Source: Idiomarina loihiensis L2TR
Lineage (GTDB): Bacteria > Pseudomonadota > Gammaproteobacteria > Enterobacterales > Alteromonadaceae
DNA: 32,000 nucleotides
Assembly (NCBI RefSeq): GCF_000008465.1
Contig: NC_006512.1
Span: 720,001 to 752,000 of the forward strand
Direction: 5' to 3'
A program made the position numbers and the translations under genes. Position 1 is the first letter of the stretch; each line of letters begins with the position of its first letter. This document shows, one piece after another, positions 14,230 to 22,308 of the stretch. The notes beneath the pieces were generated by a model. That model was not told the DNA's origin and did not search any database. It worked only from the letters and a program-made list of their open reading frames with translations.

Positions 14230-14306
14230 CGGCGTGTGGCGCAGCTTGGTAGCGCACTGTCATGGGGTGTCAGGGGTCGGAGGTTCAAATCCTCTCACGC
14301 CGACCA
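14230..14306 (+). tRNA. proL: tRNA-Pro (anticodon GGG)
   Basis: Manual cloverleaf: acceptor CGGCGTG/CACGCCG, D stem GCGC/GCGC, anticodon stem CTGTC/GTCAG (one U-U, as in E. coli proL). Loop AT-GGG-GT, T arm GGAGG-TTCAAAT-CCTCT, encoded ACCA end. Near-identical to E. coli proL. Confidence 0.95.
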
Positions 14307-14309
14307 ATT
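14260..14309 (+). repeat. attL: 50-bp direct repeat (3' 47 nt of tRNA-Pro plus 3 nt)
   Basis: TCATGGGGTGTCAGGGGTCGGAGGTTCAAATCCTCTCACGCCGACCAATT is identical to 21178-21227. Confidence 0.95.
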
Positions 14310-14364
14310 ATTTCTTTATTTTTCAAAATCTAAGAGAAATACTCGTCCCGACACACCTTATTTC

Positions 14365-14395
14365 GGAACCTTTATGGAACCTTTGGGGAACCTAA
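14365..14395 (+). promoter_or_regulatory. Three phased direct repeats GGAACCT(T/A)(T/A): putative integrase arm-type (P'-arm) binding sites
   Basis: GGAACCTTT at 14365, GGAACCTTT at 14376 and GGAACCTAA at 14387, giving exact 11-bp spacing. They lie between the attL core and the 3' end of int. Confidence 0.55.
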
Positions 14396-14405
14396 TACAG
14401 TAGAC

Positions 14406-15557
14406 CTAAATTGCAATTTCTCCAGGTGGCACTCGCGTCCATAATTTATGGTTTTCGGTATAAACCTTTGTTGATTTAGCATCCGAATGCGCCATTCTTG
14501 CTTGAGGATCATATCCCCCATCTTTGTATGCCCTTGCTGACAATGCTCTAATTTCATGAAAACTGGGTCGTTCAATTTTTGATAACTCAGAAAATAGCCC
14601 TAGCTGGTCTCGCAATTTGCTAAACTCTCTACTAATGTACTTGCTAGCAACTTGCGTTGGATGATCACAGCCTTCCCCAACCCGCTTGGGATATCGCCCA
14701 CGACGGTGAACAATGTATGGACTCAAAAGCCGATCTCGACTCCTCTCGATAACCCTTTTTAACTCTTTTGTGATCGGGATCTCAACTCTGCTAGCCTCTT
14801 TCTCTTCTGTTTTCTGACGATGAATACGCAGATATCCGAATACCATCATGCCTTCTTCAACTACTGGTTTATCCAACCAGACGCAATCTTTGTACTGAAT
14901 TCGGCTAATTTCCAAAACAGCGTGGGTCGTCTGCATGGATAATTCCATAGCTACTTTCAGATATACCGAAGCTGCCTCGTGTATTAATTTAAATGCCTCA
15001 GCTGTTAATCGTTTTCGTCGCTTGCCTTCTTTGCGCTTTTTCTTCTTCTGATCTGCAAAGTTAAGATCCATCGCGGATTCGTCGATTAGATACGTAAACA
15101 CCTTCTGTAAAAAACTGATTTTCCGGTTATAAACGTTGTTGGATTTACCTGTGCAGTATTTTTCCAAATACTCATTGACATGTCTCAGCGTTATCGCCTT
15201 TGTATAAGTTTTTCCAAAAAGCAAAGTTAAGCGTTCACAATCTGCTTCAAATGTTTTTTGAGTGTCAGATGACATTTGCTCTTCTTCACGGACTCGACGA
15301 AGAATCTTTGGCAGCCAGTACTCTAATGGCTTATTATATCTATCAGCCCTTTCGATTAGTGAGATAGTTGGGTTCCGGTACTTTGCATTAAACAGTGAGG
15401 CAGCTTCTACGGCATCATGACGAGTCGTTTCGACTGGCAGATAGACGTCTTTACCACTCGGGTACCGATAACGCCAACGTTTTACACCACGCTTTTTAAT
15501 TTGGTTTAAACCTGTCGGAAGTCCAGCGTTCTGAGTCATTCTTCTTCGTGGGGCCAT
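14406..15557 (-). CDS. int: Tyrosine recombinase, lambda-Int-like integrase with N-terminal arm-binding domain
   Basis: 383 aa, colinear by eye with lambda Int. N-terminus: MAPRRR..LPTGL...YRYPSGKDVYL versus MGRRRS..LPPNL...YRDPRTGKEFGL. Also RLTAEAFKLIHEAAS, AMELS; RQKTEEK versus QSKTGVK; PSFHEIRALSARAY versus PTFHELRSLSARLY; AHSDAKSTKVY versus GHKSDTMASQY. The box-I Arg position reads Ala (see findings). Confidence 0.9.
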   Translation of the reverse strand: MAPRRRMTQNAGLPTGLNQIKKRGVKRWRYRYPSGKDVYLPVETTRHDAVEAASLFNAKYRNPTISLIERADRYNKPLEYWLPKILRRVREEEQMSSDTQKTFEADCERLTLLFGKTYTKAITLRHVNEYLEKYCTGKSNNVYNRKISFLQKVFTYLIDESAMDLNFADQKKKKRKEGKRRKRLTAEAFKLIHEAASVYLKVAMELSMQTTHAVLEISRIQYKDCVWLDKPVVEEGMMVFGYLRIHRQKTEEKEASRVEIPITKELKRVIERSRDRLLSPYIVHRRGRYPKRVGEGCDHPTQVASKYISREFSKLRDQLGLFSELSKIERPSFHEIRALSARAYKDGGYDPQARMAHSDAKSTKVYTENHKLWTRVPPGEIAI

Positions 15558-15772
15558 CAGATGGATCCTCCTTCCAGCAGTTTAACTAGTTGCCCAACTT
15601 TTGATTCCGGCATGCAAATGTCGACGTGAATCAGAAACCGCCCCGTTGGAGTTCTCTCGATTTCAGTATTCACTGGCATTCGCCCAGTTGCAATCCAGTT
15701 GCGTACCGTTCTGCAAGTGATTTTGCCGTTAAAAAACTCGTTTGCATACTCAGAGGGAGTATATACATTCAT
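15557..15772 (-). CDS. xis: Excisionase, lambda Xis-like
   Basis: 71 aa. YTPSEYANEFFNGKITCRTVRNWIATGRMP...TPTGRFLIH aligns by eye with lambda Xis LTLQEWNARQRRPRSLETVRRWVRECRIFP..KDGREYLFH. The C-terminus GQLVKLLEGG aligns with GGLLKRIRNG. The stop overlaps the int ATG by 1 nt (TGATG), as xis overlaps int in lambda. Confidence 0.75.
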   Translation of the reverse strand: MNVYTPSEYANEFFNGKITCRTVRNWIATGRMPVNTEIERTPTGRFLIHVDICMPESKVGQLVKLLEGGSI

Positions 15773-16034
15773 ATCGTCCCCCTTATGCCTCTGTCAGCCA
15801 CTACTTCCATGTTTACTATCATCGCTATCATCCTTTAACGCCAGCTGCTTACAGTGGATATGGTATAACAATTTTCAGAAAAATTTACCGAACCCCAAAA
15901 TTTCTTAAAATCTGACGTTAATACCCTGAATAATAATATTTTTATTTAACTCTCCTGTTAATTTGAGTCACTTTATAAGCTTCACAGTATCCCCATGAGT
16001 CTGTTTGCCAATTTGTTAAAGGTAAAAGATTTAG

Positions 16035-16077
16035 CACACTAAAACCTATCTCTGATAGGTCGCTTACGCGGTGTGTT
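16035..16077 (+). promoter_or_regulatory. Candidate oriT (nested inverted repeats plus GTGTGTT) upstream of the orf190-mob operon
   Basis: CACAC(16035-39)-taaa-ACCTATC(16044-50)-tct-GATAGGT(16054-60)-cgcttacgcg-GTGTGTT(16071-77). It lies 91 bp upstream of orf190. GTGTG/TT resembles the MOBV nick motif as I recall it from pMV158. Confidence 0.35.
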
Positions 16078-16167
16078 TGCTCCGCAAAAATTTCGTTAAA
16101 GGGAGTTTAAAAAATATTATGTGCTACGATATGAAGTATATAATTTCTTATTAAACAAGGGCTTAAA

Positions 16168-16740
16168 ATGAAAATCAAAATTTCCGATTTCGACTTAGTT
16201 GAGATGCTTGCTAATTTTGACTGTCAAAAGGTCATTGACATATTAGAGGAAAATTACTTGAGGTGCGCACAAGATCTGAAATTGATGAATTTGCATGGCA
16301 GACTTCATCATAATTGCTCATTTGAAGAGCTTCATCTCGAATGGTTGGAAAGATTTATTGAGGATATTCCGTTTAGTTACATCCAGAAAAAAGCTCCCGA
16401 ATTTCGTAAGTTTTACCAGCAAAACTTGATCGACAGTCAGCTCGAAATACTTGGTTTTAATTTGGAGCACAAATTAATAATTGGCAATGCATTACGGATC
16501 CTACGTACTGAAAAATTCGAAGATCTTCCTATTCACGAACTGGAAGATTTAGCTATAAACACAGGGCTTATATCGAGATGTAGGCGTTGCGATTTTGGAC
16601 ATTTCACCACAGATCGGTTTTTTCAAAACCTCAGTTTTGAAGGATGCTCTGCAACCCCGAACGGTATCAACTCCCCCGTTACCGGTGACTGTGTTTATTT
16701 TGTAACCAGAGGTATCAACGATGAAAGCGCAACATCGTAA
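16168..16740 (+). CDS. Hypothetical protein (190 aa), no family recognised; possibly a relaxase accessory protein
   Basis: Long ORF in an AT-rich context with a weak RBS (AAGGG). Its 3' end overlaps the relaxase start by 20 nt, which suggests co-translation. The segment EFRKFYQQNLIDSQLEILGFNLEHKLIIGNALRILR has a SAM/HhH-like helix pattern (weak, by eye). The C-terminal part contains CRRC. Confidence 0.6.
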   Translation: MKIKISDFDLVEMLANFDCQKVIDILEENYLRCAQDLKLMNLHGRLHHNCSFEELHLEWLERFIEDIPFSYIQKKAPEFRKFYQQNLIDSQLEILGFNLEHKLIIGNALRILRTEKFEDLPIHELEDLAINTGLISRCRRCDFGHFTTDRFFQNLSFEGCSATPNGINSPVTGDCVYFVTRGINDESATS

Positions 16741-17716
16741 GGCATATGTTTCGGTAAAATCGAGATATTACAAGCGTGACGCGGCTACGGCGGTTCTGGA
16801 TCACGCTAACGCACGCCGAAACGGGTTTACCAAATCGATTAATGTGCATCCTGAGTATAGCTGTGACAACGTGGGGCTGTACCCGAAAGAATGTAACAGC
16901 TCAGCAGAGGCGCTTGAGCGAGCTTGTACACAGTACAAACTCGTTACAGGTAAAAAAGTTCGTAAGGATTTCAACCTCTTATTTGAACACGTAGTGGTAC
17001 TCACAGAATCACAATATGCGAAACTTGAAAAAACTTGGGGAAAACAAAAAGCCAAGGAGCTGGTACTTAAACAGTTAGCATTATACATGCGTAAAATTAA
17101 AGCAGAATTTGGTTTTGAACCGATCGGAGTCGAATTTCATGCTGATGAAGGTCATTTTCAGCCTTCAAAAACGGGTGAGGAACCAATCTTTTGCCGAAAT
17201 ATCCATGCTCATTGCCATTTTTTTAATTATGATTTTACGAAGAAAGTTGCACCGCTTAGACATTTGATGAAAAAGCAAAAAGATGGACGCGGTAGGACTA
17301 ATCAGCTGAATCCAAATTTTGAGCGTATGCAGGATATTGCTGCTAATTTATTTTCTCCTCTCGGCTTTAATCGTGGCGAATCTAAGAATGTCACAGGAAA
17401 AGAACACCTGACGAAAGAGGCGTTCGTATTAAAAAAACTGCATGGTATGGAAGAACAAATTGCTGACTTGACGAATAAAAATCGTGCGCTCGAGGTTAAG
17501 CTTCAGGCAAAACACAAGAAATCCGAAATTCTTGACAAAAAAATCTCAGTTCAAGAAAATAAAAGCGCTTGGCTTGAAAAGCATCTCCAAAAACTTCAAA
17601 CAATGGCGAATGAGCTTGAAACCGCAATAAAAAGGCGCTGCCAGAGTGCTTTAAAGCTAATGAGCCAGCGTCTTAAAAGAAGAGCCTCCCCTTCACAATC
17701 TCTGAATCGTCACTAA
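16721..17716 (+). CDS. mob: MOBV-family (Mob_Pre / plasmid recombination enzyme-like) relaxase
   Basis: 331 aa. The N-terminus AYVSVKSRYYKRDAATAVLDHANARR resembles the MobM-type (S)YxVxRxQKxK....HNxR motif I. FEHVVVLTES resembles motif II (DEWIITS). FHADEGH...NIHAHCH resembles the HxDE..PHxH motif III but with a ~15-aa insertion. The C-terminal ~100 aa are Lys/Glu/Leu-rich coiled coil, as in Mob_Pre proteins. RBS AGAGG lies upstream. Confidence 0.7.
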   Translation: MKAQHRKAYVSVKSRYYKRDAATAVLDHANARRNGFTKSINVHPEYSCDNVGLYPKECNSSAEALERACTQYKLVTGKKVRKDFNLLFEHVVVLTESQYAKLEKTWGKQKAKELVLKQLALYMRKIKAEFGFEPIGVEFHADEGHFQPSKTGEEPIFCRNIHAHCHFFNYDFTKKVAPLRHLMKKQKDGRGRTNQLNPNFERMQDIAANLFSPLGFNRGESKNVTGKEHLTKEAFVLKKLHGMEEQIADLTNKNRALEVKLQAKHKKSEILDKKISVQENKSAWLEKHLQKLQTMANELETAIKRRCQSALKLMSQRLKRRASPSQSLNRH

Positions 17717-17836
17717 CTCATTAGACACTCAGTAATCTTATTGTGAGGAGCTATCGGCCCTTGCTTGAACATTAGCTCTAGTAAGCAGTATTCAGCTTTA
17801 CTGAATGCGGCAGGGACAAACCAAATTTTCAATATA

Positions 17837-18109
17837 TCATGAGGAAGGGTCTGTCCGGCTAACTCTCAATGCTATTAACCAAATTATTGGCGATAAAGCT
17901 ATTGATAATGCTAATGCAATTACGATGGCAGGAAACATTAAGTTTATCATTATAGATATTGGATGAACCCATTGGAATTCCCAAAAAGCATTCCAAAAGC
18001 CGTGATTCTTTATAGCCGAAAAAGATAAAAAAACAGCATATACAAGAATAGAGAGGGTGAGCGTCACTCCAAAGCATCCCGAAAATACGGTTTTAAAAGA
18101 TGGCTTCAT
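17837..18109 (-). CDS. Small hydrophobic membrane protein (90 aa, 2-3 predicted TM segments), function unknown
   Basis: Hydrophobic stretches GCFGVTLTLSILVYAVFLSFSAI and ISIMINLMFPAIVIALALSIALSPIIWLIAL. RBS AGGGT sits 7-8 nt upstream. Only 32 nt downstream of the preceding ORF, so probably co-transcribed. Confidence 0.6.
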   Translation of the reverse strand: MKPSFKTVFSGCFGVTLTLSILVYAVFLSFSAIKNHGFWNAFWEFQWVHPISIMINLMFPAIVIALALSIALSPIIWLIALRVSRTDPSS

Positions 18110-18141
18110 TTTAATACCCTGTGTTTTAAATCAAAAAGATT

Positions 18142-18585
18142 TTACTGGCAAGAATATGATTCTTCGAGAAACTTTTTTATTACAAACGCGTGGTACTCTC
18201 CAAGAGAGTCAGGGTTTTTGTTTCCCCAGGCAATGAATTTATCACTTAATAGAAGAGCGTTGTCACTCATGCAAGAAAGTGCTTCATCAAGTACAAAGTC
18301 TCTCTTTTTTCGATAAGCTTCAGAGCTAACCTCATTAAACAGTGATGGTTCTTTTTCGCTATTTATCATGTGCCACATAGCTCCGGCAATAAACCCTTCA
18401 TCGTATGCCTCCGCTCTAGTTGAATATGAAAACGCTAACCTAAGCATATAGCCCCTACAAACATTAATATCTTCTTTACAGCCGTTATGCAGCATTTTGC
18501 CTTGATATTCTAATGGTACTTCATCGGCATAGGCAATCGCAGAGACGGACATGAGGATTATTAGACTGGGTAAAATAAAGCGCAT
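18142..18585 (-). CDS. Secreted/periplasmic Cys-containing protein (147 aa from the ATG at 18585), function unknown; Rap1a/Tai-immunity-like sequence pattern
   Basis: The track ORF begins at a TTG (18615). The ATG at 18585 has AAGGA 7 nt upstream and yields a classical signal peptide, MRFILPSLIILMSVSAIAYA|DE. The mature part contains C...C.GY near the N-terminus and C(x)..F..W..KNP..L..Y.......FL...Y.C at the C-terminus. This resembles my memory of periplasmic Rap1a-family T6SS immunity proteins (low certainty). Confidence 0.65.
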   Translation of the reverse strand: MRFILPSLIILMSVSAIAYADEVPLEYQGKMLHNGCKEDINVCRGYMLRLAFSYSTRAEAYDEGFIAGAMWHMINSEKEPSLFNEVSSEAYRKKRDFVLDEALSCMSDNALLLSDKFIAWGNKNPDSLGEYHAFVIKKFLEESYSCQ

Positions 18586-19019
18586 AGTTTGATCCTTTAT
18601 GAGAAGGCCCTTCAAAAGACATTAGGTCAATGTTCTTTGGCGTGCAACAATTTGTATGCCATTATCTATGGCTATGAGGTGTCTAGAAAATCGTGGTGAT
18701 TCATATTGCTTTGCTTCAACTCCCAGATAAAACACTTAAGTCAGTAATGTCAGTTGTCAAGTAGCTCCCTAGGTCAACTAACTTTCATTTTTGGAGCCAA
18801 ATAAGAAGCTACTCCCTTTGTGATAAAAGACTAAATTAGCAAGTATCACTCTTACCTTTAAAAGCGTTTAAGCTAGTGCGAGGAAGCCACTTATTTCTTG
18901 AAGTGACTAACTTTTACGTGCTAAAGCGCAAATGCAATTGGGCAAAGAATTGTATTTCGGTTTATTGTTTTACCAGCTTAAGGCCTGTCCAGCAAATAAG
19001 CCAGTGGAAGCCCTCTTTT

Positions 19020-19071
19020 GACAACTGACAACACTGACTTTTAATGTGTAATGTCAGTGTTGTCAGTTGTC
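19020..19071. repeat. Perfect 19-bp inverted repeat with 14-nt spacer; part of a GTCAG-motif cluster (candidate origin or protein-binding site)
   Basis: GACAACTGACAACACTGAC (19020-19038) and GTCAGTGTTGTCAGTTGTC (19053-19071) are exact reverse complements. GTCAGTTGTC recurs at 18749-18758, preceded by TAAT as at 19049. No U/T tract follows on either strand. Confidence 0.8.
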
Positions 19072-19082
19072 GGTAACAGCTA

Positions 19083-20726
19083 TTATCCATTCCCTTTATA
19101 ATCAGGGTGGATTTCATAACGAAGGCAGGTTTTCTTCGACTTTCCCATAGTCCATGTTTTCCGAAGATAGCCATTCTCGACTAAGCTATCGACCGCCGCC
19201 CGACAGTCCTCATTGGAAGTTAAGCCTTTCCACCCTTTCCTCTGCAATGTCCGAAGATCAAACGGCGTATCCAGCTCTTTCAGCTGTGGTAACAATAATT
19301 GCGCTAAAACCACCTGGGAACTTGATTGCCAATAGGATTGTATACGACGGCTGTGAGACTCTAGCAGAGTCATGAAATTAATTGCTTTATTAAGGCTGTC
19401 TTCACCAACGCAATTACTTGAAACGAATGCCTCATGGTGTTCTGTACTATCAGCTTCATCAAAAAGATGAAAAAGATGCGCGAGTCGAGCAAGTAACGAT
19501 GGATATTTCCCAATTACGCTCGCATGGGCACTTGAAGATTTGAGCGAATTTTCATGGTTTCTACAACACCAATTCTCAAACAAGATTTGGGCTGTATCAC
19601 TGAATCTTGCAACGACCTTTATATCGTTCTCTACCATCATTGCAAAACAAGCAAAAGCCTTTATAGCTCTCTCTTCGTAATCATGATGTTTCGCTATATC
19701 TGTAAGCTCAGTTTTGACGTCTGGATAGACTGCAAGCTGAAGTCGCTCAAAAAATCCGTCGTCTGACTCACCGGAATGCCTTCGTTTCATTAACGGTAGG
19801 AGCCTACCTGGCTGAATTCCTCCGAGAATATTGATGCCTAAACGCTCGATAAAAACATCGTCTCGCGAGAGTCGGTCCTGCGAGTAACTACTGGTATTAT
19901 TGAATGCCTCCAGATAAATAGAACGCTCTTGAGAGTTTTCGATTCTTTCAAGCCTGTTAAGCAGTCCAAATAGCTCATCTCTAACCATCAAAATTCCGTT
20001 CGGGTTTTCCTCAACGCGTTTTAGCAGCGCTTCAGGCGTCGCATCGTTAATCACAATATTCCGCATTTTAGGAGTGCTTACTTTTAATTCCTCTATTTGT
20101 TGTAATAAGGACTCTGCAAGCTTCAAATCGTTATTTTTAAAAGCTTGATCAGCTGAATCTTCTAGTATTTTGATCTGCTTCGTGAGTAACTTTTTCTTTG
20201 CAGCCCCATTTCGCTTACGCAATTCGTTTGCGGGCGTTATGATGCGATCATGTATCTTCGATATCAATGAGGTACCCACGCTCATACAGGGAGTTTTATA
20301 GGAGGATGGCGCACCGACAAATAGCCCCCAGATTGCTTGCCGAACCTCCCACTCATCAAACCTTTTGGGTTTTATACTAGCTGAGGCTCCAATAACAGAG
20401 GCAGCCGCAGTAATTACTGACACAGCGACATACTCTGGAGGGGCGTTATTGATACGTTTGGCTTCATGGCAAACGTGGCCGTATATAGCTTCTGGCAGCA
20501 TATCCGGGGAGAGAGCTATCACCGGTTCCAGCTCAGGCTCTAGGGGCCTTGGAACGTCCCATTTGGAATTAGAAACAGGGATAAGAGCCTTCTCATCAAG
20601 GGTACTTAAGTCAGACTCTCCCACTTCATGATTCCCTAACCTAACACGTTCACCAAGCTTTGCTTCTTCGTTGCTTTCAATAAAAATCCTTTTCACCCTC
20701 AAAGCAAGCGTTTTAATTCCTTTCAT
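19083..20726 (-). CDS. DUF3987 (YfjI-like) P-loop protein, putative replication/helicase protein of the island
   Basis: 547 aa. The pattern W.VP.PL..ELEPV.ALSPDMLPEAI....CHEAKR...PPEYVAVSVITAAASVIG....KP.R.D.W.V....WGLFVGAPSSYKTP (Walker-A-like) ... NDATPEALL..V..NPNGILMVRDELFGLL (Walker-B-like DE) is the hallmark layout of DUF3987 proteins of CP4-57/P4-type islands. Strong RBS AGGAG 8 nt upstream. Confidence 0.8.
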   Translation of the reverse strand: MKGIKTLALRVKRIFIESNEEAKLGERVRLGNHEVGESDLSTLDEKALIPVSNSKWDVPRPLEPELEPVIALSPDMLPEAIYGHVCHEAKRINNAPPEYVAVSVITAAASVIGASASIKPKRFDEWEVRQAIWGLFVGAPSSYKTPCMSVGTSLISKIHDRIITPANELRKRNGAAKKKLLTKQIKILEDSADQAFKNNDLKLAESLLQQIEELKVSTPKMRNIVINDATPEALLKRVEENPNGILMVRDELFGLLNRLERIENSQERSIYLEAFNNTSSYSQDRLSRDDVFIERLGINILGGIQPGRLLPLMKRRHSGESDDGFFERLQLAVYPDVKTELTDIAKHHDYEERAIKAFACFAMMVENDIKVVARFSDTAQILFENWCCRNHENSLKSSSAHASVIGKYPSLLARLAHLFHLFDEADSTEHHEAFVSSNCVGEDSLNKAINFMTLLESHSRRIQSYWQSSSQVVLAQLLLPQLKELDTPFDLRTLQRKGWKGLTSNEDCRAAVDSLVENGYLRKTWTMGKSKKTCLRYEIHPDYKGNG

Positions 20727-21177
20727 AACTACTACTCCTGTAGAAGAATCAAATAGTACAGGAGAAATATTAACCCAAAAGTCCTAATAAATATTCAGTT
20801 TGGATGGCCAGGAAACCCTATCAATTCTATTTTATAGAAAGATAATGGCAATTTGCTTGGTTATATTATTATGAGCTTTGTTATGTTATTTGAATCCGCC
20901 GACTTAATTCTAAAAAAAGAATCAATATTTTTTCTCTTTCTTTATAAAATGACCTCTTTTCAACCTATTCAACGATGATATAAAAGAATCAAATTGTGCT
21001 TAACAAGAACAATGCTAAGCAGATCAGCGGGACCATTATACAGTACTCCGTGAAATCTAAGTTATTGTTTCCTAATTGTTTTTATTTTCCTGAATTACTC
21101 ATTTTTCTGGCAGATAATAACAACTCAAAGAACTTAAGCGTTTGAAGTTAAAGGATTATATTCAATTTCGTTAGTTA

Positions 21178-21227
21178 TCATGGGGTGTCAGGGGTCGGAG
21201 GTTCAAATCCTCTCACGCCGACCAATT
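21178..21227 (+). repeat. attR: 50-bp direct repeat (duplicated 3' part of tRNA-Pro)
   Basis: Identical to 14260-14309. The upstream tRNA part is absent (sequence diverges at 21177), so it is not a functional tRNA. Confidence 0.95.
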
Positions 21228-21252
21228 CTTCTAGTGACACTCAATAAAGCAT

Positions 21253-22308
21253 TCACTGGTTCCATTCTGGTAAGCTAAGTTGCTCTCCCATTTCAGTTGC
21301 CACTCGCCAGTAACCTCCTCTGGCAGAACCTTTTCGAATTAATACCCCTTGTTCTTTCAATTTAGAAATGTGTTTTTCTACCGCGCGCGACGAAATATTC
21401 AACACTTCAGCGACTCTGGCGGCACTCCATTCGGGTTGCTCATTTAATAGCCTAAGTACCATATTTCGTGTGCTCGTGCCCGAATATCGACCTTTACCCG
21501 AACCGTTATCCGAACCTAACAGCGAACTTTTTACCGAACTCATAGGTATTTCACTGGAAAAATCATGCGAGATACTCGCTTCTTCCAGCACCTCTGCTTT
21601 GTCTTTTTCTTCTTTTACTGTGGTTGAAATACTCTGTTGCAAACAATCCAGAATAAACTCAACCATAAGACCTCTGTCATTTTCACTAATTGAGCGTCGC
21701 AAGCAATCAAGATATTCGTCTTTATTGAATTTAAAGATTTGCTCAAAGCTTAACCAGGCAACTGCCGGATGCCATTTAGCTAAAATAAGGCTAAACCAGA
21801 GTCTTCCAACACAACCGTTGGCAACAGAAAACGGCTGAATAAATTCGAACTGCTGTAAGAAAATAGCCGCTTTAATTAAAGGGTGTTCGTTGCTTTCGTC
21901 TAACCAGGACAATAGACTTCTTACCGACTTCCCGGCCTGCCCCGCCGGAGCGGTCATATGAACCAGCTTGTTGTTGCGGTAAACGCCCATTCCCGTTGCG
22001 CGATAGCTTCCGGCACTGGGGGTTACTGCGGCGCAAATCATCTGGTGAGCGTTTTTAAGATCTGACTCCGAATGTAAATTCCACTCAGACAGCTTTTTAT
22101 AGGCTTCATCTAGACGAATACCCTCCAGCGGTTGTGACTGCTCATCCAGGCCTACCGACGCATGAGCTTTAATTGGCAATTGTTGAGACTTAAAATCTTC
22201 TAAATTGCTTTTATCGGATTCAAGTAATGCTAACCAACGGCCAAAGTCGGTGCTTATTTGCGCCACTAAATTCACGCATTTACTGGTAATCAAATAATCT
22301 GCTGCCAT
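21253..22308 (-). CDS. Fic-domain protein with C-terminal winged-HTH; degenerate active-site motif
   Basis: 351 aa. The N-terminal SQPLEG fits the SxxxE(G/N) inhibitory motif. The core FLQQFEFIQPFSVANGCVGRLWFSLIL aligns to the HPFxxGNGRxxR loop with His->Gln, Gly->Ala and Arg->Cys. The C-terminus RNMVLRLLNEQPEWSAARVAEVLNISSRAVEKHISKLKEQGVLIRKG is a MarR/DeoR-like wHTH. Confidence 0.8.
   Translation of the reverse strand: MAADYLITSKCVNLVAQISTDFGRWLALLESDKSNLEDFKSQQLPIKAHASVGLDEQSQPLEGIRLDEAYKKLSEWNLHSESDLKNAHQMICAAVTPSAGSYRATGMGVYRNNKLVHMTAPAGQAGKSVRSLLSWLDESNEHPLIKAAIFLQQFEFIQPFSVANGCVGRLWFSLILAKWHPAVAWLSFEQIFKFNKDEYLDCLRRSISENDRGLMVEFILDCLQQSISTTVKEEKDKAEVLEEASISHDFSSEIPMSSVKSSLLGSDNGSGKGRYSGTSTRNMVLRLLNEQPEWSAARVAEVLNISSRAVEKHISKLKEQGVLIRKGSARGGYWRVATEMGEQLSLPEWNQ

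What the first reader, a model, noticed from the sequence alone, without database searches (positions are those of the whole stretch)
14260..21227. Compact ~6.9 kb tRNA-Pro island combining phage-type int/xis, a plasmid-type MOBV relaxase and a satellite-type DUF3987 protein, plus unassigned cargo
Seen in sequence: the last 47 nt of tRNA-Pro(GGG) plus 3 nt (14260-14309) recur perfectly at 21178-21227. The DNA between them is clearly AT-richer than both flanks. In order it contains three phased repeats, int(-), xis(-) overlapping int by 1 nt, a 395-bp intergenic region, orf190(+), and a relaxase(+) overlapping orf190 by 20 nt. Then come a 90-aa membrane ORF(-), a secreted Cys protein(-), a 467-bp repeat-rich non-coding region, DUF3987(-), and a 451-bp AT-rich arm. 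Established knowledge: yejM-proL adjacency is the E. coli arrangement, tRNA 3' ends are classic att sites, and attL(P' arm)-int-xis is the lambda prophage layout. Inference: this is a self-excising hitchhiker with no capsid or T4SS genes, so it must exploit a conjugative or phage helper. Three recombination, transfer and replication modules of different evolutionary origin are packed into under 7 kb. Three ORFs (about 1.3 kb) have no assignable function and about 1.5 kb is non-coding. That is where any novel function (defence, immunity, helper interference) would reside. I cannot tell from the sequence alone whether this element family has been described.
Basis: partly seen in the sequence, partly recalled or inferred. 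Interest (0 to 1): 0.75.

Follow-up and report, generated by a model that had tools for sequence, protein, structure and literature searches.

The report
Small mobilizable island at tRNA-Pro
This is a real, recently mobile 6.9-kb genomic island in Idiomarina loihiensis that can probably cut itself out, copy itself and borrow another element's conjugation machinery using a relaxase too divergent for three standard HMM libraries to detect; its relatives carry anti-phage defence genes through marine bacteria.

Summary
A perfect 50-bp repeat of the tRNA-Pro(GGG) 3' end brackets 6,918 bp of lower-GC DNA (40% versus 46%). Conspecific contigs show the exact empty site.

The element is best read as an integrative mobilizable element (iMOB type) with four modules:
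- Tyrosine integrase plus a 71-aa overlapping excisionase-like gene.
- A mobilization module made of a conserved structured oriT candidate, a Cys-rich accessory protein (orf190, so not cargo) and a 331-aa relaxase. Pfam, NCBIfam and PHROGs miss the relaxase, but its model matches the MobM/MOBV relaxase fold and it keeps the histidine motifs.
- A DUF3987 helicase followed by iteron-like repeats, a probable origin.
- Two ORFan cargo genes, one membrane and one secreted.

The recombinase-oriT-accessory-relaxase order recurs in Alteromonadales and Rheinheimera-group genomes with swapped recombinases. Several relatives also carry a DUF3987- or D5-type helicase. Their cargo is Gabija, retron RT, and type I and III R-M systems.

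It resembles PICMI satellites (int, int-overlapping gene, DUF3987, about 6 kb). It is not at fis, and the window's small gene matches no AlpA-type model. No relatives were found in viral collections.

Verdict: a new variant of a known kind, of moderate interest. Transfer, replication and cargo function are untested.

The parts
14230..14306 (+). tRNA-Pro(GGG), the integration target. Its 3' 47 nt form most of the att core.
   Evidence: ARAGORN; Rfam tRNA 53.8 bits
14260..14309 (.). attL core: the 50-bp perfect direct repeat, left copy.
   Evidence: The empty site in L012 carries a single copy followed by the fic flank.
14365..14393 (+). Three GGAACCT repeats phased at 11 bp, between the core and the int stop codon. 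Candidate arm-type integrase sites (inferred).
   Evidence: 3 of the 6 copies in the window fall here. The N-terminus of int gives a weak lambda arm-binding hit (PF09003, E=0.049).
14406..15557 (-). Tyrosine integrase, 383 aa.
   Evidence: phrog_1 E=2.2e-27; PF00589 E=1.5e-5 at 25.3 bits against a 27.1-bit cutoff, and SAM-like domain E=5e-4; HEIR at residue 334 and a C-terminal KVY.
15557..15772 (-). 71-aa int-overlapping gene (1-nt TGATG overlap). Probable excisionase or recombination directionality factor.
   Evidence: No direct HMM hit. It belongs to a family of about 20 small proteins. Of those, 6/20 hit HTH_17 (best E=0.002) and 3/20 hit MerR (3e-5). A sub-threshold PDB hit is a mycobacteriophage Xis, 4j2n, E=0.57. 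It is 76% identical in the sister element L041, at the same position.
16024..16090 (+). Candidate oriT: a CACTAAAACCT box, nested and overlapping inverted repeats, a GCGGTGTG box and a TTTGC/GCAAA hairpin.
   Evidence: Conserved upstream of the relaxase operon in 7 loci, with its left half in 4 more. It is 92% identical to the sister element, against 66-71% for neighbouring coding DNA. In the consensus structure 96% of cells are paired, against 31-47% in slid controls, with 2 compensatory pairs. The ssDNA fold has z=-3.0.
16168..16740 (+). orf190: relaxase accessory protein, a helical N-terminal part plus a C-terminal CxxC...C...C segment (probable zinc ribbon).
   Evidence: It aligns full-length with the 181-aa ORF upstream of the relaxase in L016 (E=2e-5). 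Its C-terminus matches the Cys-rich ORFs upstream of the relaxase in L018 and L019, which in turn cluster with those of L017, L021 and L024. It is 46% identical to the 185-aa ORF in L040/L041. ORFs of 166-195 aa occupy the same position in L033-L038. No Pfam or PDB hit.
16721..17716 (+). MOBV-like HUH relaxase, 331 aa: N-terminal nuclease domain of about 230 aa plus a C-terminal coiled coil.
   Evidence: AF2 pLDDT 88.9. Foldseek top hits are the MobM relaxase domain (E=1.7e-5, probability 1.00, target TM 0.74), then MobA, NES, TraI and TrwC. Invariant residues are H28, H140xDE and NxH162xH164. It shares 28-29% identity with Mob-like proteins of tiny plasmids, one of which hits Mob_Pre at E=5e-5.
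17837..18109 (-). orf90: putative small membrane protein with 2-3 hydrophobic segments. Cargo of unknown function, and the gene call is uncertain.
   Evidence: No hit in any library. ENA called this ORF, whereas NCBI called a 53-aa ORF on the other strand.
18142..18585 (-). orf147 (157 aa from the TTG start at 18615): secreted protein with 4 Cys, predicted mostly helical (low-confidence model). Cargo of unknown function.
   Evidence: ORFan: only a self-hit in 5.8 billion proteins. The signal peptide ...AYA|DE is read from the sequence. There is a sub-threshold Rap1a immunity hint, E=0.05. The single-sequence AF2 model is unusable, pLDDT 44.
18738..19071 (.). Iteron-like repeats: three copies of about 22 nt (AAGTCAGTnnTGTCAGTTGTCAA) at 18738-18760, 19018-19041 and 19050-19071. 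The last two form a 22-nt inverted repeat with an 8-nt loop, 12 nt after the DUF3987 stop. Candidate replication origin (inferred).
   Evidence: An analogous perfect 15-nt inverted repeat with an 8-nt loop lies just after the DUF3987 stop in L021, with further copies of the arm nearby.
19083..20726 (-). DUF3987 protein, 547 aa: putative replicative helicase with Walker A-like GAPSSYKT and Walker B-like ILMVRDE motifs. No primase domain detected.
   Evidence: PF13148 E=4.1e-73; phrog_2373 'DNA helicase' E=1.1e-27; motifs. DUF3987 is predicted to be a mobile-element replication helicase (PMC5862659).
20727..21177 (.). AT-rich right arm (29.7% GC). It holds the DUF3987 promoter region and three AAGAATCAA repeats at 20744, 20917 and 20984. 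No alpA-like ORF.
   Evidence: (these are the only 3 copies in the window; 0.57 expected)
21178..21227 (.). attR core: the 50-bp perfect direct repeat, right copy.

Best explanation
The element is an integrative mobilizable element with its own relaxase and oriT but no mating-pore genes (the iMOB type). It also carries a small plasmid-like replication module.

Proposed cycle:
1. Int, helped by the 71-aa int-overlapping protein, recombines the two 50-bp cores. This releases a 6,918-bp circle and restores an intact tRNA-Pro. The precise empty site is shown. The excision chemistry is inferred.
2. The DUF3987 helicase loads at the iteron-like repeats just downstream of its own gene and keeps the circle replicating. 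This step is inferred.
3. The MOBV-like relaxase, with the Cys-rich accessory protein orf190, binds the hairpin-rich oriT just upstream of its operon. It nicks one strand, probably through the invariant His28 as MobM does. It is then handed to the coupling protein and type IV secretion system of a co-resident conjugative plasmid or ICE. The fold, the motifs and the oriT conservation are shown. The activity and the helper are inferred.
4. In the recipient, the int-xis side would be the leading region under the usual plasmid convention, and Int inserts the circle into tRNA-Pro. This step is inferred.

The slot between the relaxase and the helicase is the cargo slot. In relatives it carries defence systems. 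Here it carries two ORFan envelope proteins whose role is unknown.
For: Mobility:
- The empty attB is exact in most conspecific contigs, and the element is present in only a minority.
- Element copies in four independent assemblies are 99.99-100% identical.
- Scaffold L002 ends exactly 5 bp outside each core. That is what a k=55 assembly-graph branch gives when occupied and empty alleles coexist (inference).

Relaxase:
- The model matches the MobM fold.
- The invariant His, HxDE and HxH residues hold across 31 and 18 sequences.
- Homologs occur on 2.8-5.6 kb plasmids. One hits Mob_Pre over nearly the full profile.
- That plasmid also carries a PAGEV RNA in a predicted origin (PMC5737381). A protein Rep is therefore probably not needed there.
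- There is a weaker link to Bacteroides 'mobilization protein' genes; the one inspected lies beside cfxA.

oriT:
- It is a conserved structured block with compensatory changes.
- It is the best-conserved stretch against the sister element.
- Its position upstream of the mob operon and its overlapping inverted repeats parallel the pMV158 oriT (PMC5863519).

Family context:
- The order recombinase - oriT - accessory - relaxase - cargo recurs with unrelated recombinases and att sites. These are Tyr integrases at tRNA-Arg or tRNA-Ser, or a serine recombinase at miaE. A DUF3987 or D5_N/DUF5906 helicase is also seen in L021, L033-35 and L036-37.
- No T4SS, coupling-protein or capsid gene is present.
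- IMEs with MobV relaxases and with replication genes are an established class (PMC5704250; PMC11389934).
Against: - No activity has been shown. No attP junction was found in JGI metagenome contigs or in IMG/VR.
- The relaxase is not recognised by Pfam Mob_Pre, NCBIfam or PHROGs, nor by sequence profiles against PDB. The assignment therefore rests on a predicted structure, motifs and a transitive link.
- Motif I reads H-x4-R rather than the canonical HxxR. The HxDE and HxH boxes are separated by an insertion of 15-40 aa.
- The nick site is not mapped.
- No helper conjugative element is known. The 32-kb window cannot show one.
- oriT covariation rests on 7-8 sequences and two compensatory pairs.
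- The origin assignment is by analogy only.
Confidence: 0.72

Rival explanations
1. The element is a PICMI-like phage satellite. A helper phage induces excision through Int and the int-overlapping gene. The DUF3987 'primase' amplifies the circle, and concatemers are packaged into helper capsids. The HUH protein would serve replication or processing rather than conjugation.
For: PICMIs are marine elements of about 6.1 kb. They are defined by int, AlpA and a DUF3987/DUF5906 'primase'. They have large non-coding regions, and many have a gene overlapping int by 1, 4 or 13 nt that is needed for excision (PMC10803314). The window element has int, a 1-nt-overlapping 71-aa gene and DUF3987. It is 6.9 kb with about 1.5 kb non-coding. 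Some members of the 71-aa family weakly hit PF12728, one of the two AlpA models used for PICMI.
Against: - Integration at fis is called a hallmark of PICMI. This element is at tRNA-Pro.
- The window's own 71-aa protein hits neither AlpA model, and there is no alpA-like ORF upstream of DUF3987.
- DUF5906 is not detected.
- A complete relaxase, accessory protein and oriT module is present and is conserved under selection.
- No relative of the relaxase family or of this DUF3987 protein occurs in 2.9 M IMG/VR contigs, and the attP junction is absent there.
- The relaxase model has no significant viral structural neighbour. The best one is itself annotated as a relaxase, at E=0.04.
Confidence: 0.08
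2. The HUH protein is mainly a rolling-circle replication or maintenance initiator for the excised circle, not a conjugative relaxase. The conserved hairpin block would be its double-strand origin. The element would then spread only by other routes.
For: HUH nucleases serve both as Rep and as Mob proteins, and some ICE and IME relaxases double as replication initiators (PMC5704250). The distant homologs sit on 2.8-3.4 kb plasmids with almost no other genes.
Against: - The best structural matches are all conjugative relaxases: MobM, MobA, NES, TraI and TrwC. None is a Rep protein.
- The V. cholerae plasmid has a PAGEV RNA in a predicted origin, which offers a protein-independent replicon.
- The element already carries a separate replication candidate, DUF3987 plus iteron-like repeats.
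- The C-terminal coiled coil and the upstream oriT position mirror MobM.
Confidence: 0.08
3. The element is an inactive relic: an integrated former mobilizable plasmid or IME that no longer excises or transfers and is inherited vertically in one lineage.
For: No circular junction was found. The integrase scores just below the Pfam cutoff. The element was seen in few assemblies.
Against: - Both 50-bp cores are perfect and every ORF is intact.
- The presence/absence polymorphism is precise within a species whose flanking proteins are 100% identical.
- The same attB holds at least two other unrelated inserts.
- The scaffold break pattern implies both alleles in one sample.
- oriT is under purifying selection relative to the sister element.
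Confidence: 0.07

Closest known systems
Canonical IMEs with MobV relaxases (Tn5520, Tn4451, ATE-1, IMESag-rpsI), called 'iMOB' in current terminology
   Same: Each has a site-specific recombinase, its own relaxase and oriT, and no mating-pore genes, within a few kb. Each depends on a helper conjugative plasmid or ICE. Some also encode replication initiators (PMC5704250; PMC11389934).
   Different: - The MobV examples read in that review are from Firmicutes, Bacteroidetes and Actinobacteria. This family is in marine Gammaproteobacteria.
- The relaxase is too divergent for Mob_Pre, with an insertion between the HxDE and HxH boxes.
- It comes with a dedicated Cys-rich accessory protein.
- It is paired with a DUF3987 or D5-type helicase.
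MobM of pMV158 (MOBV1 prototype) and its oriT
   Same: The relaxase fold is shared, as are the histidine-based motifs and the C-terminal coiled coil. In both, oriT lies directly upstream of the mob gene with overlapping inverted repeats.
   Different: There is no detectable sequence similarity. Motif I spacing differs. The 15-40-aa insertion sits inside the motif that in MOBV relaxases is the metal-binding HxDE...HxH box (my recollection, not checked here). An accessory protein is present. The oriT sequence is unrelated.
PICMI satellites of Vibrionaceae
   Same: Both are marine and about 6-7 kb. Both have int, a small gene overlapping int, a DUF3987 replication protein, large non-coding regions and one or two unknown cargo genes. 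In PICMI one of these is anti-phage.
   Different: This element is not at fis. The window protein gives no AlpA hit. DUF5906 is absent. It carries a relaxase and oriT. No trace was found in virome collections.
Small mobilizable plasmids of Vibrio and Pseudomonas (p21S, pSDH-2, pBYT5-6)
   Same: They carry the nearest non-island homologs of the relaxase: 28-29% identity over about 90% of its length.
   Different: They are extrachromosomal, with no integrase, and one has an RNA-associated replicon. MOB-suite, as reported by PLSDB, types them 'non-mobilizable'. That tool therefore does not recognise their Mob-like gene as a relaxase.
Defence islands carried on mobilizable islands
   Same: Relatives of this element carry Gabija, a retron-type RT-Toprim, type I and type III R-M, HKD+Snf2 and an IetA-like ATPase with an S8 protease, next to the oriT/relaxase module. 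This matches the reported clustering of defence genes near oriTs (preprint 10.64898/2026.01.13.699239).
   Different: The window element itself has no recognisable defence gene. It has only two ORFan envelope proteins in that slot.

Membership tests
Integrative mobilizable element (iMOB type) | Integrated, flanked by att repeats, with a site-specific recombinase | tested here: met
   50-bp perfect direct repeats and an exact empty site; tyrosine integrase
Integrative mobilizable element (iMOB type) | Encodes its own relaxase | tested here: met
   MobM-like fold, conserved His motifs and a Mob_Pre-linked homolog. This is a structural and sequence inference, not an activity assay.
Integrative mobilizable element (iMOB type) | Carries an oriT | tested here: inconclusive
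   A conserved structured block lies upstream of the mob operon in 11 of the 13 genome loci (complete in 6, left half only in 4, right half divergent in L024), plus the window and the sister element. The nick site and its function are not shown.
Integrative mobilizable element (iMOB type) | Lacks mating-pair-formation (T4SS) and coupling-protein genes | tested here: met
   None of the seven ORFs hits such families.
Integrative mobilizable element (iMOB type) | Is transferred by a helper conjugative element | not testable with these tools
   This needs mating assays. A helper cannot be sought in a 32-kb window.
MOBV relaxases (Pfam Mob_Pre, PF01076) | Matches the Mob_Pre sequence profile | tested here: not met
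   No hit at E<=0.1 for the window protein. The plasmid homolog p21S scores 23.5 bits against a 25.5-bit cutoff.
MOBV relaxases (Pfam Mob_Pre, PF01076) | MobM-type relaxase fold | tested here: met
   Foldseek probability 1.00, target TM 0.74, with six MobM chains at the top
MOBV relaxases (Pfam Mob_Pre, PF01076) | Signature motifs HxxR (catalytic His) and HxDE...PHxH. The consensus is recalled from the MOBV literature. Only the histidine nucleophile was checked here (PMC5863519). | tested here: inconclusive
   Invariant H28 sits in LDHxxxxR, so the spacing differs. H140xDE and NxH162xH164 are present but split by an insertion of 15-40 aa. No residue-level structural alignment was available.
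PICMI phage satellites | int + AlpA (PF05930/PF12728) + primase (PF13148 DUF3987 and PF19263 DUF5906), co-localised | tested here: inconclusive
   int and DUF3987 are present. The window's small protein hits no AlpA model, although 6/20 relatives weakly hit PF12728. DUF5906 was not detected.
PICMI phage satellites | Integration next to fis, stated to be a hallmark | tested here: not met
   It is integrated in tRNA-Pro between yejM and fic. The definition is from PMC10803314.
PICMI phage satellites | Packaged and transduced by a helper phage | not testable with these tools
   There is only indirect negative evidence: no relatives and no attP junction in IMG/VR.
PICI / P4-like / cfPICI satellites | Packaging or capsid-redirection genes (terS, ppi/rpp, sid/psu/delta, capsid genes). 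The gene list is from my own knowledge. | tested here: not met
   No PHROG or Pfam hit of that kind in any ORF
ICE or prophage fragment | Part of a larger element with T4SS or virion genes | tested here: not met
   The element is bounded by att cores. Immediately outside are core-genome genes (yejM, fic-HTH, HIT) that are contiguous in empty-site strains.

The most novel reading that the evidence does not exclude
The element is a dual-route hitcher. Its PICMI-like core (int, int-overlapping gene, DUF3987 replicon) would let it be amplified and packaged by a helper phage. Its cryptic MOBV-like relaxase and oriT would let the same 6.9-kb circle ride conjugative elements. Its two ORFan envelope proteins, one secreted with 4 Cys and one small membrane protein, would be a new defence, immunity or entry-exclusion function sitting in the slot where relatives carry Gabija, retrons and R-M systems.
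Probability: 0.08. Interest if true: 0.8.

Novelty: new variant of a known kind. Interest (0 to 1): 0.45.

Why it matters
- A relaxase clade invisible to Pfam, NCBIfam and PHROGs means that islands and small plasmids carrying it are currently scored as non-mobilizable. PLSDB's MOB-suite typing does score the plasmid homologs that way. Recognising the clade would reassign a set of marine genomic islands, many of them loaded with anti-phage systems, to the conjugation-hitcher category. It would also supply a ready oriT and relaxase pair to test.
- The window element is the smallest complete member. That makes it a convenient minimal model: four modules in 6.9 kb, with a natural empty-site strain background.
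- Its two ORFan cargo genes occupy a slot that holds defence genes in relatives, so they are reasonable candidates for an unknown protective function.
- None of this overturns current concepts. IMEs, MobV-type IMEs and defence cargo near oriTs are all established.

Tried and rejected
- Sequence-level links from orf331 to MobM failed. Single-sequence and two profile searches against PDB returned only coiled-coil noise. Pfam, NCBIfam, PHROGs and PADLOC gave no relaxase hit.
- lambda-type Xis: no Pfam or PDB hit for the 71-aa protein alone.
- Homolog searches for orf157 and orf190 returned only themselves.
- The Rap1a hint for orf157 (E=0.05) could not be tested. The single-sequence AF2 model was poor (pLDDT 44), so no fold search was run on it.
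- DUF3987 and orf190 have no solved-structure relatives by sequence.
- An attP junction search in JGI metagenomes and IMG/VR found nothing.
- Relatives of the relaxase family or of the DUF3987 protein were not found in IMG/VR.
- Rfam found no known RNA in the element apart from the tRNA.
- I considered and rejected three readings: a fragment of a larger prophage or ICE (the flanks are core genes, contiguous in empty-site strains), a PICMI member (wrong site, and the window protein matches no AlpA model), and orf190 as cargo (it is a conserved mob accessory).

Full report
**1. Observation**

The window comes from Idiomarina loihiensis GSL 199, CP005964.1. ARAGORN finds one tRNA, tRNA-Pro(GGG), at 14230-14306.

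The repeat finder and a direct string test confirm a perfect 50-bp direct repeat at 14260-14309 and 21178-21227. The two copies diverge at the next base.

The interior is 40.1% GC, against 46.4% and 45.7% for the flanks. The right arm drops to 29.7%.

The three phased repeats are GGAACCT at 14365, 14376 and 14387, an 11-bp period.

**2. It is a discrete, recently mobile unit**

Exact-sequence look-ups of the flanking Fic-HTH and YejM proteins returned many conspecific contigs. In most of them yejM, tRNA-Pro and fic are contiguous. This holds for L005/L012 and their 12-18 collapsed equivalents, and for L008, L009, L010 and L015. Only the GSL 199 contig and one equivalent carry this element.

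At base level the empty site reads tRNA 5' part, then one core, then the fic-side flank. That is exactly the sequence predicted by deleting one core plus the interior.

Element copies in three metagenome or SRA assemblies are 99.99-100% identical to the window. One of them, the 6,978-bp scaffold L002, spans window 14255-21232. That is 5 bp beyond each 50-bp core. A k=55 de Bruijn assembler would give this pattern if occupied and empty alleles coexisted in the sample. This last point is my inference.

The same attB holds two unrelated inserts in other strains. L006 carries an island with a 445-aa integrase. L013 carries a 3.3-kb integrase-less insert bounded by a full core and a 39-nt partial core. 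The 3' end of tRNA-Pro is therefore an integration hotspot.

**3. Recombination module**

The 383-aa protein is a tyrosine integrase. It scores phrog_1 E=2e-27. Its Pfam PF00589 hit (E=1.5e-5) falls just under the cutoff. HEIR and a C-terminal Tyr are present.

The 71-aa gene overlapping int by one base has no direct HMM or PDB hit. A full scan of 1.8 billion representatives found about 20 small relatives. Of these, 6/20 weakly match HTH_17 and 3/20 match MerR. A profile search against PDB gives only sub-threshold hits, one of them a mycobacteriophage Xis.

Its position, its size, its winged-helix-type relatives and its 76% conservation beside int in the sister element make an excisionase role likely. 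That role is not proven. It is not a member of the lambda Xis Pfam family.

**4. Mobilization module**

*Sequence-level searches.* orf331 has no hit in Pfam, NCBIfam, PHROGs or PADLOC. It does have 67 homologs, all unannotated, in Pseudoalteromonas, Alteromonas, Shewanella, Rheinheimera and other marine bacteria.

*Motifs.* The alignment shows invariant H28 (in LDHxxxxR), H140-x-D-E-G and N-x-H162-x-H164. These residues persist when distant plasmid proteins are added.

*Fold.*
- An AF2 model built on this alignment is confident (pLDDT 88.9). It has an alpha/beta N-terminal domain and a 90-residue C-terminal helix.
- Foldseek against PDB puts six MobM (pMV158; MOBV/Mob_Pre) relaxase-domain chains first, with E down to 1.7e-5, probability 1.00 and target TM 0.74.
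- Next come MobA (R1162), NES, TraI (pCU1) and TrwC. No Rep protein appears among the significant hits.
- Against viral structures nothing is significant.

*Plasmid homologs.*
- tblastn finds homologs of 28-29% identity over about 90% of the length on plasmids of 2.8-5.6 kb from Pseudomonas and Vibrio cholerae. It also finds weaker matches to Bacteroides 'mobilization protein' genes. The one inspected lies beside cfxA.
- The V. cholerae protein matches Mob_Pre over profile positions 1-190 of 196, at E=5e-5.
- That plasmid also carries a PAGEV RNA, E=2e-30. This RNA lies in a predicted replication origin (PMC5737381). The HUH protein is therefore probably not the plasmid's Rep.

*oriT candidate.*
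- Upstream of the operon, a k-mer screen of the 13 related loci and the window revealed a conserved non-coding block. In the window it lies at 16024-16090.
- It consists of a CACTAAA(A/G)CCT box, overlapping inverted repeats, a GCGGTG(T/G)G box and a TTTGC...GCAAA hairpin.
- RNAalifold and explicit pair counting give 96% paired cells against 31-47% for slid controls. Two compensatory pairs are present, and 3 of 500 shuffles reach the covariation score.
- One locus extends the inner stem by an insertion that is itself self-complementary.
- As ssDNA the window copy folds with z=-3.0.
- Against the sister element this block is 92% identical, while the adjacent coding DNA is 66-71% identical. It also shows the complementary state of one covarying pair.
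- Its position upstream of the mob operon and its mutually exclusive hairpins parallel the pMV158 oriT. MobM nicks that oriT with a histidine (PMC5863519).

*orf190.* orf190 is part of this module.
- It aligns end to end with the 181-aa ORF in front of the relaxase in L016.
- It is 46% identical to the 185-aa ORF in the sister element.
- Its C-terminal CxxC...C...C segment matches the Cys-rich ORFs immediately upstream of the relaxase in L018 and L019, and these cluster with the equivalent ORFs in L017, L021 and L024.
- In those loci a separate ORF of about 115 aa precedes the Cys-rich one, and no sequence match links it to orf190's N-terminal part. I therefore read orf190 as a fused version of a two-gene accessory pair; this is an inference from position and size.

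**5. Replication module**

The 547-aa protein is a DUF3987 protein (E=4e-73; phrog 'DNA helicase'). It has Walker A-like and Walker B-like motifs and no detectable primase domain. DUF3987 has been predicted to be a helicase of mobile-element replication (PMC5862659). It is also the 'primase' marker of PICMI satellites.

Twelve bases after its stop codon lies a 22-nt inverted repeat with an 8-nt loop. A third copy of the same 22-mer lies 257 bp further on. The Colwellia relative has the same arrangement with an unrelated sequence.

I read this as an element-specific origin. I recall that SaPI and PICI origins also sit just 3' of their rep genes, but I did not check that here. The reading is an inference. 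A transcription terminator plus operator sites is an alternative.

**6. Family and cargo**

In 13 species-representative genomes and several further contigs the accessory-relaxase pair lies next to a site-specific recombinase of varying type. The oriT block was seen complete in six of the 13 genome loci and the sister element, and partly conserved in five more.
- **Tyr integrase at tRNA-Arg(CCG).**
- **Tyr integrase at tRNA-Ser(GGA).**
- **Tyr integrase beside groEL.**
- **Large serine recombinase at miaE.**

Cargo follows the pair. In the loci examined with Pfam and PADLOC, most of that cargo is defence:
- **L021:** GajA 3e-270, GajB 2e-197 and RT-Toprim 4e-225.
- **L019:** HKD+Snf2 plus type III R-M.
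- **L023:** an IetA-like ATPase with an S8 protease.
- **L024, L028, L036 and L038:** type I R-M.
- **L033-35:** a SNIPE/T5orf172 nuclease.

L021 is fully delimited by a 19-bp tRNA-Ser repeat and is 11.7 kb long. Its order is int - oriT - accessory - relaxase - cargo - DUF3987(-) - attR, the same as the window. Pseudoalteromonas marina islands also end in DUF3987. Alteromonas islands carry a D5_N/DUF5906 helicase instead.

The closest relative (relaxase 65%, int 87%, xis 76%) has the same left half but different genes after the relaxase. These are a predicted lipoprotein and a 434-aa unknown.

The window element is therefore the minimal member of a modular family. Its cargo slot holds orf90, a small membrane protein with an uncertain gene call, and orf147, a secreted protein with 4 Cys that is predicted mostly helical in a low-confidence model. 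orf147 has no homolog beyond itself, orf90 matched no family library, and neither hits a defence model. Their function is unknown. The ideas of defence, T6SS immunity (Rap1a hint at E=0.05) or entry exclusion are speculation.

**7. Comparison with known systems**

By function and architecture this is a canonical IME of the iMOB type (PMC11389934; PMC5704250). MobV-encoding IMEs are known: Tn5520, Tn4451, ATE-1 and IMESag-rpsI. So are IMEs with replication genes.

The element meets the IME criteria that sequence can test. Transfer itself is untested.

It does not meet the sequence definition of Mob_Pre. I therefore describe the relaxase as MOBV-like by fold and motifs, and as a divergent clade rather than a demonstrated member.

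It resembles PICMI satellites in size, habitat, the int-overlapping gene and DUF3987. It fails their stated hallmark, integration at fis. The window's small protein matches no AlpA model. No relatives were found in virome data.

**8. Verdict**

The element is a new variant of a known kind.

The added value is threefold. First, a relaxase clade with a partner accessory protein and a candidate oriT goes undetected by the standard HMM libraries tried here (Pfam, NCBIfam, PHROGs). MOB-suite, as reported by PLSDB, types 14 of the 17 plasmids with homologs as 'non-mobilizable'. Second, that clade appears to mobilise defence islands across marine Gammaproteobacteria. Third, there is a compact model element with two ORFan cargo genes.

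Interest is moderate (0.45). No step of the proposed life cycle has been shown experimentally.

Noticed in passing
L013:7752-11115 (the same attB as window 14260-14309): Another I. loihiensis-type contig has a 3.3-kb insert at the same tRNA-Pro site. It holds three unannotated ORFs (221, 200 and 368 aa) and no integrase. It is bounded by the full core and a 39-nt partial core. It looks like an integrase-less, possibly cis-mobilizable element, and is unrelated to the window element.
   Followed up: partly
L006:7084-13056: A third occupant of the same attB. This island has a 445-aa integrase (Arm-DNA-bind_3 / Phage_int_M) next to the fic-side core, followed by unknown ORFs and a Calx-beta/reprolysin-like protein. 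There is no DNA similarity to the window element.
   Followed up: partly
L002 (= window 14255-21232): A 6,978-bp metagenome scaffold ends exactly 5 bp outside both 50-bp cores. The pattern fits a k=55 assembly-graph branch caused by coexisting occupied and empty alleles in one sample. L011 likewise ends exactly at the core.
   Followed up: partly
window 21253-22308 (-): The Fic + winged-HTH gene immediately outside attR matches the PADLOC SoFic defence model (E=3.6e-25). It is present in empty-site strains, so it is chromosomal and not part of the island.
   Followed up: partly
L029 (V. cholerae plasmid p21S) 1324-1541 and 1950-2930: This 3.4-kb plasmid carries a PAGEV RNA (RF03037, E=1.8e-30), an MqsRA toxin-antitoxin pair and a Mob_Pre-like 'recombinase'. 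PLSDB/MOB-suite types it, and other plasmids with this gene, as non-mobilizable. They may in fact be mobilizable.
   Followed up: partly
L021:4416-16141: An 11.7-kb Colwellia island at tRNA-Ser(GGA) has the same backbone. It carries Gabija (GajA/GajB) and a retron-type RT-Toprim as cargo, and is bounded by a 19-bp direct repeat.
   Followed up: yes
L042-L044 (marine metagenome contigs): A widespread relaxase variant (P0021, found on 39 contigs including TARA) sits among HEPN proteins, IS elements, TnsA/TnsB-like genes, a group II intron RT and a BsuBI/PstI-type R-M fusion near miaE. This is a mosaic hotspot in which the mob module persists.
   Followed up: no
window 20744, 20917 and 20984: The only three copies of AAGAATCAA in the 32-kb window all lie in the 451-bp AT-rich arm upstream of DUF3987 (0.57 expected). 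They may be protein-binding sites for Int, Xis or a regulator.
   Followed up: partly
window 17805-18109: The gene calls conflict. NCBI annotates a 53-aa ORF on the + strand (17805-17966), whereas an ENA assembly calls the 90-aa membrane ORF on the - strand (17837-18109). Neither has homologs.
   Followed up: no
L017:7686-9179: A 497-aa protein with no Pfam hit lies upstream of the mob operon. By eye, its N-terminal segment resembles the start of the window's DUF3987 protein. It may be a very divergent helicase of the same kind.
   Followed up: no
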